Sequence record: OR539219.1
Direction: 5' to 3' (one strand)
Source of the DNA: Escherichia phage vB-Eco-KMB39
DNA: 64,000 bases
The stretch's first letter is position 1. Every line of letters begins with the position of its first letter. Below are positions 1,737-6,866 of this stretch, one piece after another. The translations under genes were made by a program, and so were the position numbers. Under the pieces are notes generated by a model. It ran no database searches. It was not told the DNA's origin and worked only from the letters and a program-made list of their open reading frames with translations.

Positions 1737-1766
1737 ATAATATCTCAATCATGAGCCTATGTAAAC
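1737..1766 (-). promoter_or_regulatory. T4-early-type promoter candidate (GTTTAC-N18-TATTAT) for the 1181..1711 gene
   Basis: Minus strand GTTTAC (plus 1761-1766) and TATTAT (plus 1737-1742); a 10-bp inverted repeat ataggctcat/atgagcctat sits in the spacer. Confidence 0.35.
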
Positions 1767-2030
1767 TTATTTCATATTATTAAAATATTCTTCTGCGATT
1801 TCGTCGTTATCATGGTAAACTTTAGAAGACAGTTTAACATAACCTTCAGCAATGAACATGTTAATCACAACCTTTACAGTATACCACTGACCATCTTCAT
1901 TACCCATTACTGCGTAAGTTTCAAACATCGGATGATCAGGACCGATAACTTTAATATCATTCACTGTACGACCGAAATCTTCTGAAACGCATTTCATAAA
2001 GAAGTTGAACAGTTCGCCGTAATTATCCAT
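1767..2030 (-). CDS. hypothetical small protein
   Basis: ORF track gives 1767..2084; start moved to ATG at 2030 (MDNYGELF, GGAGA RBS) because the 2084 ATG lies inside the predicted promoter spacer. Confidence 0.5.
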   Translation of the reverse strand: MDNYGELFNFFMKCVSEDFGRTVNDIKVIGPDHPMFETYAVMGNEDGQWYTVKVVINMFIAEGYVKLSSKVYHDNDEIAEEYFNNMK

Positions 2031-2074
2031 TTCATTCTCCAAGTTGTTTTTCTGTATCAGTAGTTGATAGTTGT

Positions 2075-2104
2075 ATAGTACCATGGAAGAACGGGGATGT
2101 AAAC
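2075..2104 (-). promoter_or_regulatory. T4-early-type promoter candidate (GTTTAC-N18-TACTAT)
   Basis: Minus strand GTTTAC (plus 2099-2104), TACTAT (plus 2075-2080), A/T-rich upstream tract; shares leader motif TATCAACTACTGA with the 6039..6068 copy. Confidence 0.4.
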
Positions 2105-2236
2105 CGTTTTGTGAAAAAATTTTTAAAAAGTTTTAGGGAATTCTAGGGCAGGGATGGGCAATTAAAGGATAGGATAATATATTATAAAGGGTATAAACTA
2201 AATGATGCCTAGAGAGGTCCAGAAAGGCCTAGATAT

Positions 2237-2265
2237 CAAAAAGCCCCAACCTTTCGGTCGGGGCT
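2237..2265 (-). terminator. intrinsic terminator: 10-bp stem, GAAA loop, T-run
   Basis: Minus strand AGCCCCGACC-GAAA-GGTTGGGGCT followed by TTTTT, just downstream of the 2272..2745 gene. Confidence 0.55.
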
Positions 2266-2271
2266 AAAATG

Positions 2272-2745
2272 TTATTTGATTTGTTTAGCAGACCAAATGC
2301 GGTCTTTGATGATTTTTTGGATGTCTTCAACATACTCAAGAGAGTGAGCATGTGGGTTATCTTTGAAACTATAAGCACGAGCTAGCTTTTGGCCTTCGGT
2401 TTTGATTACTAAAAGCTCTTTAAGGATAGCTTCATATTTGGAGATAATTCCTTTAACAATATTTTTCTCTTGTGCGACTTTAGGATCTGCTTTAGGAGCA
2501 GGTTTACCCGAAGCCTTTGCAAAAGCAGCGCCAGTAGCAACTAAACTTTTCCAGGCCATACTAACCGCATTTCCTGTAAATCCTTCTGCTTTCATGTCGC
2601 GAGCAAATTGGAATCGCGATTCGTCAGAAGCATCTTTATAAGAATATTTACCCGCTGCAATGGCTGCTTTTGCGACAGCTTGAATTTCGGTGCTAGATGC
2701 TTCATTTAACACCGCTTCATTTAAAAATTGAGTATATGATTTCAT
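2272..2745 (-). CDS. phage internal protein (head-packaged) with capsid-targeting N-terminus
   Basis: ORF track 2272..2922 trimmed to ATG 2745 (AGGAAA RBS); N-terminus MKSYTQFLNE-AVLNE has the MK(T/S)(Y/F)xxF motif and L-x-E prohead-protease sites; basic Ala/Lys-rich body. Confidence 0.6.
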   Translation of the reverse strand: MKSYTQFLNEAVLNEASSTEIQAVAKAAIAAGKYSYKDASDESRFQFARDMKAEGFTGNAVSMAWKSLVATGAAFAKASGKPAPKADPKVAQEKNIVKGIISKYEAILKELLVIKTEGQKLARAYSFKDNPHAHSLEYVEDIQKIIKDRIWSAKQIK

Positions 2746-2783
2746 CTTATTTCCTGTTTTAATTCGTGGATTTAATATACTAA

Positions 2784-2791
2784 TATTTATA
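2784..2791 (-). promoter_or_regulatory. late promoter TATAAATA
   Basis: Exact TATAAATA on minus strand 39 nt upstream of the internal-protein ATG. Confidence 0.45.
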
Positions 2792-2793
2792 CT

Positions 2794-2822
2794 AAAAAGC
2801 CCCAACCTTTCGGTCGGGGCTA
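2794..2822 (-). terminator. intrinsic terminator, identical copy of the 2237..2265 hairpin
   Basis: Same 24-nt AGCCCCGACC-GAAA-GGTTGGGGCT plus T-run; lies at the 3' end of the tRNA/stable-RNA transcription unit. Confidence 0.55.
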
Positions 2823-2829
2823 AGCCTTG

Positions 2830-4634: not shown

Positions 4635-5150
4635 TTAAAGCAAATTAATCATTTTAACGGTCGGCAAAACAATTTCTTCTTCAATATAAGCGAATTCGAC
4701 GCTTTCAACTACACGTAGGAAATCATAGTCATAGTATTCAGAAGCATGACCAAGAATATCAATGAGGCCTTCAGATATCTTATTACCATTCACAAAGAAT
4801 AAGTCAAATACACGTTCTTCGTCTTCTTCGGATTTATTACCAAGGTCAACTTCTATATCAAAGACCTTTTTAATGAATTCTGGATAAAGCTGGTCTGAGA
4901 ACAGTCCTTCAACCAAGTATTCATAAATAAAAAGCGATTGCTCGCTGAACAAGCCATTACCACAATAACGTTCAGCTTTAGTACTAGAATGTCTACTTTT
5001 AAACTTCTTTAAAAGATATTGAAATTGTAAGATTTCATGCTCTTCTACGCCAAACAGTGTTTTAGTTTTATAGTTGTCACCATCATTTTCCCATGTAGTT
5101 ACATCAATCACATAACCCTGCGGAATTGTAGTACCTAAACAAACATTCAT
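4635..5150 (-). CDS. hypothetical strongly acidic protein
   Basis: 171-aa ORF; about one residue in five is D or E; start overlaps the stop of the upstream gene. Confidence 0.6.
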   Translation of the reverse strand: MNVCLGTTIPQGYVIDVTTWENDGDNYKTKTLFGVEEHEILQFQYLLKKFKSRHSSTKAERYCGNGLFSEQSLFIYEYLVEGLFSDQLYPEFIKKVFDIEVDLGNKSEEDEERVFDLFFVNGNKISEGLIDILGHASEYYDYDFLRVVESVEFAYIEEEIVLPTVKMINLL

Positions 5151-5440
5151 TTGCTCACCATATTAATGTAAGTATATTCAATACATTCAAGACCCAAAGG
5201 ATTCTTGAAAATATCATATTCAAGAGGACCTTTTTCCGTTTCAATAAAGAAATCAAAATTTACTGTATTAAATTTACGGTCTTCCTTCACTAATTTAACC
5301 TGAGAAGATGAACGGTCAATGTAAACCTTTTCAACTTCAAAACACGTTAAAATGCCATAATCATCAATCAAGGCTTTAGCTGCTTCTTGATCATATTTAT
5401 ATCCATTTTCAACGGACGATACTTTAGCATAAAGAATCAT
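5147..5440 (-). CDS. hypothetical protein
   Basis: 97-aa ORF tightly packed in the same minus-strand operon. Confidence 0.55.
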   Translation of the reverse strand: MILYAKVSSVENGYKYDQEAAKALIDDYGILTCFEVEKVYIDRSSSQVKLVKEDRKFNTVNFDFFIETEKGPLEYDIFKNPLGLECIEYTYINMVSK

Positions 5441-5442
5441 TA

Positions 5443-5832
5443 TCAGCCTTCATCAACAATAGTATGAGTGTGAGCATTTACAATTTGCCACCAATCAAAG
5501 CGATTAGAACCATACATCGGTTTGTTTTCATTTTCTTTGATAATATCACGGAGTTCATCTTCGGTAGCGGCTTTCGCGATTAAATCAGCATATCCACCAC
5601 GAGGATAATAATTATCACCTGCAAAAAGTAAAAAGTTTGGTTTAATGTTATTGAACTCTTCAAGAGTAATAACTTTTCCTGACGGTTGAACAATCTCTAC
5701 ATATTTATATCCCAATTTTTGAGCAGCATCTACTGCTTCAAGCAAAGTATCATGAGCCCATCCAATTTGACAACCTGGCTTTTCAGATGGATTAGCCTGA
5801 TAATCCGCATACACTTTATACATTCTATTCAC
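5443..5832 (-). CDS. hypothetical protein
   Basis: 129-aa ORF; its start overlaps the upstream small ORF by 8 nt. Confidence 0.55.
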   Translation of the reverse strand: MNRMYKVYADYQANPSEKPGCQIGWAHDTLLEAVDAAQKLGYKYVEIVQPSGKVITLEEFNNIKPNFLLFAGDNYYPRGGYADLIAKAATEDELRDIIKENENKPMYGSNRFDWWQIVNAHTHTIVDEG

Positions 5833-6010
5833 CTTTAGAAATTTTATCCATAACGATAGCGATTAAACCAATTAAAAATGCTACTACAAGTGAAAAAACG
5901 TTTTCTGCTGTAGTCAATAATCCGCATATAAATCCAACAAACATTGAAAAACTAAAAGCAGAAGCAGAAATTGCAATAGCAACATTTCGAATTAATTCAC
6001 AACGTTTCAT
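5825..6010 (-). CDS. small hydrophobic (likely membrane) protein
   Basis: 61 aa with two hydrophobic stretches; GAGGAG RBS and early-type promoter directly upstream. Confidence 0.5.
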   Translation of the reverse strand: MKRCELIRNVAIAISASAFSFSMFVGFICGLLTTAENVFSLVVAFLIGLIAIVMDKISKGE

Positions 6011-6038
6011 TTTATTCTCCTCAGTAGTTGATAGGGTA

Positions 6039-6068
6039 ATAGTATCACAACTAAAACCCTATGTAAAC
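6039..6068 (-). promoter_or_regulatory. T4-early-type promoter candidate (GTTTAC-N18-TACTAT)
   Basis: Minus strand GTTTAC (plus 6063-6068), TACTAT (plus 6039-6044), A/T-rich upstream; overlaps the 3' end of the internal-protein gene. Confidence 0.45.
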
Positions 6069-6080
6069 AACTTTGTGAAA

Positions 6081-6338
6081 TTATTTTAAATCTTCTAATC
6101 GTTTCTTCATCTTAGAACCATTTTTAGCAATTTCTCCTGCATCGGAGCATAACGCTAAAAGTGCTTTAACTTTAGTTTGGTCTCCTTTAAAAGACGAAGG
6201 ATCGACCGCAGCAGCAAGTTCTTTAATACGAGAGAAAAGACGCTCAGCTTCAGCTAAAGCCATTCCAAGCTTTACTTCCATACCGTGGGAAGATTCGGTG
6301 ATAGTAGTTTTTGTAGCAAACTCTTTGAAAGTTTTCAT
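6081..6338 (-). CDS. internal protein (IPI-locus type) with capsid-targeting N-terminus
   Basis: 85 aa; N-terminus MKTFKEFATKTTITE with I-T-E protease site; sits next to 57B as ipI does in T4 (memory). Confidence 0.6.
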   Translation of the reverse strand: MKTFKEFATKTTITESSHGMEVKLGMALAEAERLFSRIKELAAAVDPSSFKGDQTKVKALLALCSDAGEIAKNGSKMKKRLEDLK

Positions 6339-6368
6339 TTTATTTTCCTAATTAATTTTGATGAGGTA

Positions 6369-6398
6369 ATAGTATCACTACCTCATCAGCATGTAAAC
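6369..6398 (-). promoter_or_regulatory. T4-early-type promoter candidate (GTTTAC-N18-TACTAT), near-identical repeat of 6039..6068
   Basis: 33-nt block atgtaaacaactttgtgaaattattttaaatc is identical at 6061-6093 and 6391-6423. Confidence 0.45.
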
Positions 6399-6410
6399 AA
6401 CTTTGTGAAA

Positions 6411-6866
6411 TTATTTTAAATCGTCTGCCCAATCGAGTTTAAGAGGTTCTTTGTATTCACGATCTAATACAACCGGAATTTGTACATCACCGCTAAATGA
6501 TAAGGGCCCAACATTATAAGACAATGTTATATGCGGTGTGTAATCATCAAAATCATGTGTAGCACCTAGTGCCCGCGCATACATGTGTCGACAGCGCAGA
6601 TATTCAGAATCTAGCACAAGTACAAGAGTCGATCCATCTTGTGTTTTCCATACTTCTAAATGTCCAGAAGAAGCTACTTCAAAACTTCCACTCGATGGAA
6701 CATATGGAACATTTACTCTCGAATAACATATGGTCGAATGAATTTTTTCTCTAGGAACTGGATTAGGAACACGTAAAGAGCGCTGAAGTTCTTCCAGCGC
6801 ATCAAGTGTTAATTCTGAAAACTTAGCTGCTACATAAAGACCCGTTGAAAAGTCTTTAAATTCCAT
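6411..6866 (-). CDS. 57B: gp57B-like conserved hypothetical protein
   Basis: 151-aa ORF immediately downstream of 57A; assigned by synteny. Confidence 0.7.

What the first reader, a model, noticed from the sequence alone, without database searches (positions are those of the whole stretch)
1737..6423. Family of near-identical early promoter and leader repeats
Four copies of GTTTAC-N18-TA(C/T)TAT with A/T-rich upstream tracts occur at 1737-1766, 2075-2104, 6039-6068 and 6369-6398. Two share an identical 33-nt block and a leader motif TATCAACTACTGA. Each overlaps or abuts the stop codon of the upstream gene, so each small gene has its own promoter. The repeats could also drive recombination between loci.
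Basis: seen in the sequence. Interest (0 to 1): 0.4.

Follow-up and report, generated by a model that had tools for sequence, protein, structure and literature searches.

The report
Repeated T4-type early promoter cassettes
The repeats are the standard strong early promoters of a T4-like phage, each packaged with a small hairpin and a ribosome-binding site in front of a small gene. This kind of cassette, and its role in swapping genes between related phages, has already been described, so the finding is real but ordinary.

Summary
The window comes from a Tequatrovirus, about 95% identical to RB51 and AugustSocin. All four GTTTAC-N18-TAYTAT motifs are at the stated coordinates, on the minus strand, where 0.03 are expected by chance.

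Each motif has an A/T-rich upstream tract. Five of six have an extended -10 (TGn). A Shine-Dalgarno sequence and ATG follow 25-44 nt after the -10 box. T4 and RB51 carry the same promoters at the orthologous positions.

The motif matches the published T4 early-promoter consensus (GTTTAC at -36 to -31) and the published PeSL consensus for the PST/T4 pair (TTTACW-N17-TAYWAT).

Four of the six sit inside a hairpin whose loop holds the -10 box. The pairing is kept across phage genera by compensatory changes. This is the stem-loop already described for PeSLs.

Copies 3 and 4 flank the internal-protein gene Ip5. Relatives carry one to three Ip cassettes at this spot. Some have hybrid promoters made from the upstream half of one copy and the downstream half of the other, so the recombination idea holds.

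Details that were off:
- The identical block is 32 nt, not 33.
- The leader motif is shared by a different pair of copies.
- Only one copy truly abuts a stop codon.

No transcript 5' ends exist for this phage.

Verdict: already known, low interest.

The parts
1180..1209 (-). GTTTAC at 1209-1204, TGn, TATAAT at 1185-1180. It lies inside the 3' end of the ORF130c-like gene, whose TAA stop (1183-1181) is part of the -10 box. No hairpin.
   Evidence: fold z = +1.4; the RB51 orthologue is nearly identical
1737..1766 (-). GTTTAC at 1766-1761 abuts the e.8 stop codon (1769-1767). The -10 box is TATTAT at 1742-1737. No TGn.
   Evidence: the same promoter stands upstream of T4 e.7 and in RB51
1729..1760 (-). 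Hairpin enclosing the -10 box of copy 1. The 5' arm (1760-1748) lies in the -35/-10 spacer. The 3' arm (1741-1729) overlaps the -10 box and runs past it. 13 bp.
   Evidence: RNA fold -18.2 kcal/mol, z = -5.2, 0 of 200 shuffles as stable
2075..2104 (-). GTTTAC, TGg, TACTAT. It has a 44-nt stretch between -10 and ATG that contains TATCAACTACTGA (2069-2057). No significant local hairpin, although the minimum-energy fold pairs spacer GTTCTTCC with the SD region.
   Evidence: (z = -0.8); T4 orthologue at record position 70696
2233..2267 (-). Intrinsic terminator (GC-rich hairpin plus T-run) 135 nt upstream of copy 2. It is one of two direct copies; the other is at 2789-2823. Together they bracket the inserted ORF 2272-2745.
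   Evidence: D6, 94% identical; T4 has a single copy at 70825-70859
6039..6068 (-). GTTTAC, TGa, TACTAT. It lies 12 nt after the Ip5 stop codon. The leader contains TATCAACTACTGA (6033-6021) and the SD GAGGAG.
   Evidence: T4 orthologue at 73572
6031..6062 (-). Hairpin enclosing the -10 box of copy 3: ATAGGGT (6062-6056) pairs with ACCCTAT (6037-6031), and TAGT pairs with ACTA inside it.
   Evidence: fold -16.6 kcal/mol, z = -2.4; orthologues in Jiaodavirus and Dhakavirus keep the pairing through GGGTT/AACCC versus GGGCT/AGCCC
6369..6398 (-). GTTTAC, TGa, TACTAT. It lies 12 nt after the 57B stop codon.
   Evidence: T4 ipI promoter at 73939
6359..6388 (-). Hairpin enclosing the -10 box of copy 4. 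5' arm 6388-6376, loop 6375-6372, 3' arm 6371-6359. 13 bp.
   Evidence: fold -17.4 kcal/mol, z = -4.1; 100% of cells paired and 5 pairs changed on both sides between the T4 type and Mosigvirus
6028..6096 (-). Downstream arm of the 69-nt direct repeat that brackets Ip5. It is 84% identical to 6358-6426 and includes the 32-nt identical block 6061-6092 (= 6391-6422). That block covers the last three codons (DLK), the stop codon, the UP region and the -35 box.
   Evidence: (D1)
6358..6426 (-). Upstream arm of the same 69-nt direct repeat.
56496..56525 (-). Its GTTTAC overlaps the alt TAG stop codon. TGt, TATAGT. It drives a 96-aa DUF5498 gene (ATG at 56464).
56470..56517 (-). Hairpin enclosing the -10 box of the sixth promoter. 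Its 3' arm contains the Shine-Dalgarno sequence (GAGGA) of the downstream gene.
   Evidence: fold -25.7 kcal/mol, z = -4.8; 5 of 5 SD bases pair with the promoter spacer

Best explanation
These are sigma-70-dependent early promoters of a T4-like phage, organised as compact cassettes of the kind published as PeSLs (promoter-early stem-loops).

Each cassette reads, on the minus strand: an A/T-rich UP region that usually overlaps the end of the upstream gene; GTTTAC, which is the -35 hexamer TTTACA shifted by one base; a 17-nt spacer counted from TTTACA; usually TGn; a TAYTAT or TATAAT -10 box; a leader of about 20-40 nt; a Shine-Dalgarno sequence; and the ATG of a small gene.

Inferred steps:
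- Unmodified host RNA polymerase fires these promoters immediately after DNA entry, giving each downstream gene its own short, unstructured mRNA.
- In four of the six copies, the spacer and the bases just after the -10 box are complementary. Only RNA that reads through from an upstream promoter can therefore fold a strong hairpin around the -10 box. The hairpin would then attenuate the readthrough RNA, stabilise its 3' end or, where the SD lies in the 3' arm, keep it untranslated. Each cassette would thus be insulated from its neighbours.

Shown by comparison: because the cassettes share 14-32 nt identical stretches, T4's recombination machinery uses them as crossover points. Genes are added, lost and swapped between them, most visibly at the internal-protein locus between 57B and trna.4.
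For: Identity of the phage and gene map.

Motif statistics: 4 hits against 0.03 expected; 6 against 0.91. All are on the gene strand, with an SD-ATG 25-44 nt downstream. TGn is present in 5 of 6. The upstream 30 nt are 70-83% A+T.

Orthologous promoters in T4 and RB51.

Literature:
- T4 early consensus GTTTAC at -36 to -31 with an A-rich -40 to -44 region (PMC1524935).
- UP/-35/TGn/-10 architecture and stimulation by Alt (PMC2988021).
- PeSL consensus TTTACW-N17-TAYWAT in PST/T4 (PMC4122927).
- Stem-loops most often between -35 and -10 or overlapping the -10 box. One tested stem-loop reduced reporter expression about as much as the rrnB T1 terminator. One PeSL drove about 13,000 Miller units (PMC2839356).

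Hairpins:
- z = -5.2, -4.1, -4.8 and -2.4 for four of the six copies.
- Across T4, 13 of 38 strict hits have z < -3.
- Cognate promoter halves fold better than chimeric halves, -13.1 versus -8.6 kcal/mol, p = 6e-4.
- Covariation is seen.

Recombination:
- Breakpoints against T4 fall at the start codon, SD, capsid-targeting sequence (CTS) and UP/-35 boundaries.
- Relatives hold one to three Ip cassettes, each with a promoter copy.
- Hybrid promoters occur in T2, RB33, SP1 and locus L014.
- Only 251 of 736 matching phage records keep at least 80% of the P-Ip5-P segment in one place.
- T4 recombines efficiently even at 6-10 bp microhomologies (PMC9391042).
Against: There is no transcript 5'-end or expression data for this phage. 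Activity and 'early' timing rest on sequence, orthology and what is published for T4 and RB49.

Copy 1 lacks TGn. Two of the six copies (1209 and 2104) have no significant hairpin, so the stem-loop is not obligatory.

The hairpins lack the U-tract of intrinsic terminators, so the published 'terminator' role is not evident from sequence.

Hybrid promoters with mismatched arms survive in T2, RB33 and SP1, so the hairpin is dispensable at least in the short term.

Copies 1 and 2 are only 61% identical to copy 3. Recombination between those copies would be much rarer than between copies 3 and 4.
Confidence: 0.9

Rival explanations
1. The copies resemble each other only because every strong promoter converges on the same RNA-polymerase contact sequence. 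The similarity would have no bearing on recombination.
For: Most conserved columns in the six-way alignment are the known contact elements: the A-tract, GTTTACA, TGn, and TA...T of the -10 box. Copies 1 and 2 are only 61% identical to copy 3. The TTTCACAAAGTT upstream block also precedes unrelated genes at other loci.
Against: The 32-nt identity between copies 3 and 4 runs through three codons and the stop codon of two unrelated genes, which is not a polymerase contact. T2, RB33, SP1 and L014 carry promoters that are exact hybrids of the two types, joined in the shared GTGATACTATTA core. The number of cassettes varies from one to three among relatives. Swap boundaries with T4 fall in these elements.
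Confidence: 0.07
2. The inverted repeats around the -10 box act at the DNA level, either as binding sites for a dimeric repressor that shuts off early transcription or as cruciforms that nucleate recombination. They would not act as RNA hairpins.
For: The dyads are centred on the -10 region, a classic operator position. [quoted passage not shown] The shut-off of T4 early promoters is still not fully explained (PMC3014915).
Against: Every promoter has a different arm sequence, so no single protein could read them all. What is conserved is the pairing, including G-U pairs, which form in RNA but not in a DNA duplex. The register of the dyad relative to the -10 box shifts between paralogues.
Confidence: 0.07
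3. The hairpin's main job is translational. Its 5' arm in the promoter spacer acts as an anti-Shine-Dalgarno sequence, so the gene is translated only from its own promoter's transcript. This is the logic already known for the T4 late genes e, soc and I-TevI, rather than transcription attenuation.
For: At 56525 the 3' arm contains the SD. In 13 of 37 T4 and window promoters, at least 3 SD bases pair with the spacer. These include the promoters upstream of T4 regB and dexA. The arrangement is documented for late and middle promoters (PMC2988022; PMC2330249).
Against: The pairing at copy 2 is not better than shuffles, z = -0.8. The review states that the known cases are all late genes.
Confidence: 0.3
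4. The motifs are consensus look-alikes that are not used as promoters in infection.
For: A generic sigma-70 scan of this A/T-rich DNA is barely above chance, 40 sites against 32 expected. Consensus matches alone therefore prove little.
Against: The specific GTTTAC-N18 pattern is 6 against 0.91 expected. All six are on the gene strand and all sit directly before an SD-ATG. They are conserved at orthologous sites across several Tevenvirinae genera. Cloned PeSLs of this design were so strong that most clones carried down-mutations (PMC2839356).
Confidence: 0.03

Closest known systems
Bacteriophage T4 early promoters (Pe class; consensus of Liebig & Rüger 1989, Wilkens & Rüger and Miller et al. 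2003, as summarised in PMC1524935 and PMC2988021)
   Same: GTTTAC at -36 to -31, an A-rich UP region, TGn, and a TAnnnT -10 box 18 nt after GTTTAC. They sit directly upstream of early genes on the counter-clockwise strand. T4 itself has the orthologous promoters upstream of ipI, trna.4, e.8, e.7 and e.6.
   Different: Nothing essential. The host phage is an RB51/RB32-like relative in which two of the downstream genes are different cassettes: Ip5 in place of ipI, and the ORF130c-like gene in place of e.7.
PeSL (promoter-early stem-loop) regulatory cassettes of T4-type phages (Arbiol et al. 2010, PMC2839356; Comeau et al. 2014, PMC4122927)
   Same: Upstream stop codon in an A/T-rich tract, a sigma-70-like -35 and -10, a stem-loop overlapping the -10 box, then SD and ATG. 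Clustered in hyperplastic regions next to genes that differ between close relatives. The consensus TTTACW-N17-TAYWAT was reported for the PST/T4 pair. Crossovers fall within the cassette.
   Different: The stems here are A/U-richer than the GGGG...CCCC stems of RB49 and phi1. Two of the six copies have no stem-loop. The PST figure legend places the stem-loops 'just upstream of the promoter', whereas here they enclose the -10 box, as in the commonest RB49/phi1 subclass. Mini-circles were not and could not be tested here.
Internal-protein (ipI) locus polymorphism of T-even phages (Repoila et al. 1994, EMBO J 13:4181; cited in PMC4122927; paper not retrievable here)
   Same: Different Ip genes occupy the slot between 57B and trna.4. 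The exchanged segment is bounded by the conserved promoter, leader and capsid-targeting sequence (CTS) on one side and by the next promoter on the other.
   Different: None that I can see. The window carries the Ip5 allele as a single cassette.
Promoter-inside-hairpin translational control of T4 late genes (e, soc, 49, I-TevI, I-TevII, I-TevIII; PMC2988022)
   Same: A promoter lies within a hairpin, so its own transcript lacks the 5' arm while readthrough RNA folds. At 56525 and at several T4 early promoters the 3' arm holds the SD.
   Different: The known cases use late or middle promoters and always sequester the SD. Here the promoter is early, and in most copies the SD is outside the stem.

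Membership tests
T4-type early promoter | -35 region GTTTAC (TTTACA hexamer) with the -10 box TAnnnT 17 nt after the hexamer | tested here: met
   Six exact matches against 0.91 expected. The four reported copies match the stricter TAYTAT form against 0.03 expected.
T4-type early promoter | A/T-rich UP element upstream of -35 | tested here: met
   70-83% A+T in the 30 nt upstream, with A-tracts at about -40 to -50.
T4-type early promoter | Extended -10 (TGn), present in most members | tested here: met
   Present in 5 of 6 copies; copy 1 (1766) has AGA instead.
T4-type early promoter | Oriented toward, and closely upstream of, an early gene | tested here: met
   All are on the minus strand with an SD-ATG 25-44 nt after the -10 box. 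The downstream genes are orthologues or allelic replacements of T4 e.6, e.7, e.8, trna.4 and ipI, plus a DUF5498 gene next to alt.
T4-type early promoter | Transcription by unmodified host sigma-70 polymerase within the first minute, without phage proteins | not testable with these tools
   No RNA data exist for this phage. The primary T4 mapping papers (Broida & Abelson 1985; Miller et al. 2003) are not held.
PeSL cassette | Stable stem-loop within or next to the promoter (between -35 and -10, overlapping -10, or flanking) | tested here: met
   Four of six copies have hairpins enclosing the -10 box, with z from -2.4 to -5.2. Copies 1209 and 2104 have none. Definition taken.
PeSL cassette | Upstream stop codon in the A/T-rich tract, and SD plus start codon at the 3' end | tested here: met
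   The upstream stop lies 0-12 nt before, or overlaps, the -35 box in 4 of 6 copies. It lies inside the -10 box at 1209 and 167 nt away at 2104. SD and ATG are present in all six.
PeSL cassette | Located in variable regions, next to genes that differ between close relatives | tested here: met
   Swaps and insertions relative to T4 occur at the ORF130c-like gene/e.7, ORF 2272-2745 and Ip5/ipI. The number of Ip cassettes varies among relatives.
PeSL cassette | Stem-loop acts as a terminator or attenuator of upstream transcription | tested here: inconclusive
   None of the promoter hairpins is followed by a T-run, and none is picked up by the terminator scan. The function was shown only for one RB49 stem-loop.
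PeSL cassette | Recombination between copies, yielding deletions, insertions and mini-circles | tested here: met
   Natural hybrid promoters and variable cassette numbers support recombination. Mini-circles themselves cannot be tested with these tools.
T4 middle promoter (MotA-dependent) | MotA box (a/t)(a/t)(a/t)TGCTTtA centred at -30 in place of a -35 element | tested here: not met
   No TGCTT in any of the six spacers. True Mot-box sites lie elsewhere, at 7873 and 4645 on the minus strand.
T4 late promoter | TATAAATA at -13 to -6 with no -35 element | tested here: not met
   None of the six contains TATAAATA. The nearest late-type box is at 2791 on the minus strand, upstream of ORF 2272-2745.
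Intrinsic (Rho-independent) terminator | G+C-rich hairpin followed directly by a U-run | tested here: not met
   The promoter hairpins are followed by AAUUUGAGG, CAACUACUG, AAAAUUAAU or ACAAAAUG. Genuine terminators in the region are at 2242-2265, 2798-2821 and 520-541.

The most novel reading that the evidence does not exclude
The hairpin that encloses the -10 box may be a conserved, selected device found in roughly half of Tevenvirinae early promoters. It would let the cell tell 'own-promoter' transcripts, which lack the 5' arm and are translated, from readthrough transcripts, which fold and are silenced or trimmed. In about a third of promoters the spacer would act as an anti-Shine-Dalgarno sequence. 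That would extend to early genes a control so far documented only for late genes. It would also help explain why immediate-early protein synthesis stops once early promoters shut off, even though transcription from upstream continues.
Probability: 0.3. Interest if true: 0.4.

Novelty: already known. Interest (0 to 1): 0.15.

Why it matters
For annotation, these six sites can be marked as early promoters, or PeSL-type cassettes, of a T4-like phage. They define the transcription units of several small accessory genes, including an injected internal protein; some T4 internal proteins are known to block host restriction systems. The repeat pair around Ip5 marks a natural exchange point where relatives carry different or additional internal-protein genes, which bears on host range. 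None of this changes current understanding. The one point of wider interest is the strength and conservation of the hairpin around the -10 box, whose function has been tested only once, in a distant relative.

Tried and rejected
- A position weight matrix built from the six copies found no further members above the best scores in shuffled sequence: next best 11.0, shuffles up to 13.7. I therefore claim no weaker copies.
- The generic sigma-70 scan is uninformative in this A/T-rich DNA, 40 sites against 32 expected.
- I could not obtain Miller et al. 2003 (PMC150520) or Repoila et al. 1994 (PMC395341).
- The supplement of PMC9161530 does not contain a legible list of T4 promoter coordinates.
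- Searches for genome-wide 5'-end mapping of T4 found nothing usable.
- IMG/VR holds few T4-like contigs: 13 loci for the UP/-35 block. One pattern was mis-specified by one base and returned nothing. The corrected pattern gave 3 loci.
- I considered a single consensus structure for all copies and dropped it. The paralogous hairpins sit in different registers relative to the -10 box, so covariation was counted only on one orthologous set of six distinct sequences. All five two-sided changes there come from one Mosigvirus lineage.
- I considered a protein operator and rejected it because the arm sequences differ between copies.
- I considered an intrinsic terminator and rejected it because there is no U-run.
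- I considered a transposable element and rejected it because there are no terminal inverted repeats and no transposase.

Full report
**What the window is.** The first 8 kb match more than a thousand T4-like phage genomes. The best matches are about 95.5% identical over the full length (AugustSocin) and 93% coverage for RB51 and RB68. Using the RB51 and T4 annotations, the ORF list and the tRNA scan, the region reads as follows, all on the minus strand: e.5, e.6, an RB32ORF130c-like gene, e.8, an RB32ORF132c-like gene, the rnaC/rnaD homologues, six tRNAs, a segB-like gene, three tRNAs, an extra ORF, trna.2, trna.3, trna.4, Ip5 (internal head protein), 57B, 57A and gene 1.

**Checking the observation.** GTTTAC-N18-TAYTAT occurs four times in 64 kb, exactly at the stated coordinates and always on the minus strand. 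Chance expectation is 0.03.
- With the -10 box relaxed to TANNNT there are six hits against 0.91 expected. The two additions are 1180-1209, upstream of e.6, and 56496-56525, immediately after alt.
- A weight matrix built from the six copies finds nothing else above shuffled background.
- The generic sigma-70 scan is near chance in this A/T-rich DNA.
- So it is the specific T4-type pattern that is significant, not promoter-likeness in general.
- The longest identical stretch between copies 3 and 4 is 32 nt (6061-6092 = 6391-6422). These two are 84% identical over 69 nt, while copies 1 and 2 are only 61% identical to copy 3.
- The leader motif TATCAACTACTGA belongs to copies 2 and 3 (2057-2069 and 6021-6033), not to the pair that shares the identical block.
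- Relation to the upstream stop codon: copy 1 abuts the e.8 stop. Copies 3 and 4 lie 12 nt after the Ip5 and 57B stops. Copy 2 is 167 nt from the nearest stop. The promoter at 1209 has the upstream gene's TAA inside its -10 box. The promoter at 56525 shares its first G with the alt TAG.

**Anatomy.** Aligned from the -35 box, all six share an A-rich tract, GTTTACA, a 'G-T' just before the -10 box (a full TGn in five of six), TA...T, and an SD-ATG 25-44 nt after the -10 box. The predicted leaders are about 19-38 nt.

**What it is.** The pattern matches three published descriptions:
- The T4 early-promoter consensus has GTTTAC at -36 to -31, an A-rich -40 to -44 region resembling an UP element, and conserved -12, -11 and -7 positions (PMC1524935).
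- T4 early promoters are described as 'uber' UP/-35/TGn/-10 promoters that out-compete host promoters and are in part stimulated by the injected Alt ADP-ribosyltransferase (PMC2988021).
- TTTACW-N17-TAYWAT is the consensus given for PeSL cassettes in the PST/T4 pair (PMC4122927).

T4 and RB51 carry the same promoters at the orthologous positions: upstream of ipI/Ip5, trna.4, e.8, e.7/ORF130c and e.6. Mot-box (middle) and TATAAATA (late) signatures are absent from the six copies and present elsewhere in the region.

**The hairpin.** Four of the six promoters lie in an inverted repeat. Its 5' arm is in the -35/-10 spacer and its 3' arm starts in or just after the -10 box:

| Promoter | Fold energy (kcal/mol) | z-score |
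|---|---|---|
| 1766 | -18.2 | -5.2 |
| 6398 | -17.4 | -4.1 |
| 6068 | -16.6 | -2.4 |
| 56525 | -25.7 | -4.8 |

The promoters at 1209 and 2104 have none. The arm sequences differ from copy to copy, so this is not the shared consensus folding on itself. Three tests support that:
- In T4, 13 of 38 strict pattern hits have z < -3.
- Joining each promoter's upstream half to its own downstream half gives -13.1 kcal/mol on average, against -8.6 for mismatched halves (Mann-Whitney p = 6e-4).
- Across genera the pairing is kept by compensatory change. The promoter after 57B has TGATGAGGTA/TACCTCATCA in Tequatrovirus and TGATAGGACTA/TAGTCCTATCA in a Mosigvirus. On the alignment, 100% of cells pair and five pairs change on both sides, with 0 of 500 shuffles matching. 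The sample is small and all five changes come from one lineage.
- The trna.4 promoter has GGGTT/AACCC in Jiaodavirus and GGGCT/AGCCC in Dhakavirus. A Gaprivervirus and phage PECP20 have yet other stems around their -10 boxes.

This feature is not new. Arbiol et al. state that PeSL stem-loops most commonly lie between -35 and -10 or overlap the -10 box. They showed that one such stem-loop reduced reporter expression about as much as the rrnB T1 terminator (PMC2839356).

**What the hairpin does is not settled by my data.**
- None of the hairpins has the U-run of an intrinsic terminator.
- Because the 5' arm lies upstream of the start site, only readthrough RNA can fold.
- At 56525, and in 13 of 37 T4 and window promoters overall, at least 3 SD bases pair with the spacer. 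This is the arrangement known for T4 late genes such as e, soc and I-TevI (PMC2988022).
- Two observations hint that the hairpin and a conventional terminator are alternatives. Copy 2, which lacks a hairpin, has a strong terminator 135 nt upstream. A Marfavirus has terminator-then-promoter with no hairpin at the 57B junction. The sample is too small to conclude.

**Recombination.** Compared with T4, the window differs by three cassette events:
1. The ORF130c-like gene replaces e.7. Homology breaks at the start codon (1709) and at the e.6 SD (1154).
2. ORF 2272-2745 is inserted between two copies of a terminator hairpin that is single-copy in T4 (2233-2267 and 2789-2823).
3. Ip5 replaces ipI. 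Homology breaks inside the N-terminal capsid-targeting sequence (6304) and just after the stop codon (6086).

Copies 3 and 4 are thus a 69-nt direct repeat bracketing Ip5. The evidence from relatives:
- Of 736 phage records that match the P-Ip5-P segment, only 251 keep at least 80% of it in one place.
- RB33 has Ip5-Ip9-Ip7 and T2 has two Ip genes, each cassette preceded by a promoter of this family.
- The T2 promoter at locus position 1280 is, base for base, the upstream half of the window's copy 3 joined to the downstream half of copy 4, within the shared GTGATACTATTACC core. RB33 (position 1114) and SP1 (position 385) have similar hybrids with mismatched arms.
- IMG/VR locus L014 has a hybrid in which an A-to-G change in the 5' arm restores pairing.
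- Karamvirus and Kanagawavirus have no promoter at this junction; there the 57B stop overlaps the Ip start.
- T4 is known to recombine at homologies as short as 6-10 bp (PMC9391042). PeSL-mediated excision circles were detected in RB49.

**Verdict.** The thing described is a textbook feature of T4-type phages that has also been characterised as a mobile regulatory cassette. What remains inferred is actual transcription in this phage and the function of the hairpin. Novelty: already known. Interest: low.

Noticed in passing
window 2233-2267 and 2789-2823 (minus strand), bracketing ORF 2272-2745: A 35-nt direct repeat (94% identical) of a strong intrinsic terminator flanks a 157-aa ORF (phrog_2280, function unknown). 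T4 lacks this ORF and has only one copy of the terminator. The ORF is preceded by TATAAATA at 2791, a T4 late-promoter box. It therefore looks like a late-expressed gene cassette inserted by recombination between terminator hairpins. The RB51 record notes the same repeat.
   Followed up: partly
window 4635-5150 (minus strand): A 171-aa ORF (phrog_2290, function unknown) lies between trna.2 and tRNA-Gln. T4 and RB51 have nothing at this position. A Mot-box middle-promoter-like site (ATTTGCTTTA-N12-TATTAT, starting at 4645) overlaps its 3' end, in the position of the known middle promoter of the T4 tRNA cluster.
   Followed up: partly
window 7845-7873 (minus strand): A Mot-box middle-promoter-like site (TAATGCTTCA-N12-TATAAT) lies directly upstream of gene 1 (dNMP kinase). 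It overlaps a near-miss of the early -35 box (GTTTAA).
   Followed up: no
window 8020-8049 (plus strand): A near-consensus sigma-70 site (TTGACA-18-TATTAT, 11 of 12 matches, with an A/T-rich upstream tract) points antisense inside gene 3. The same sequence is present in T4 at about 75,572. Because it lies in coding DNA, its conservation says little.
   Followed up: partly
window 3654-4304 (minus strand): The segB-like homing endonuclease gene sits between tRNA-Ser and tRNA-Gly. In T4 it sits between tRNA-Arg and tRNA-Ile. The tRNA set also differs: Asn and Tyr are present and Pro is absent. This is consistent with endonuclease-driven reshuffling of the tRNA cluster.
   Followed up: no
window 3393-3467 (minus strand): ARAGORN calls this tRNA-Met (CAT). 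The RB51 and T4 records annotate the orthologue as tRNA-Ile with a CAU anticodon.
   Followed up: no
T4 reference NC_000866 about 70,340 (locus L004) and 133,300-133,313 (locus L005): The T4 reference has an N inside the 5' arm of the e.7 promoter hairpin. It also carries a note that a 14-nt stretch inside early promoter Pe133295 had earlier been reported as its inverted complement. Both errors fall within the -35/-10 spacer of an early promoter of this hairpin type.
   Followed up: no
T4 record positions 27080, 53943, 55384, 70696, 146875, 163673, 166807, 167086: The sequence TACTAT-ACAACTATCAACTAC(TGATAC) recurs after several T4 early promoters, including those of motA and denB.
   Followed up: partly
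window 6411-6866 (minus strand): Some records annotate the 57B orthologue as the anti-CBASS nuclease Acb1. The promoter repeat thus links an anti-defence gene to the variable internal-protein cassettes. Some T4 internal proteins are themselves reported anti-restriction proteins.
   Followed up: no
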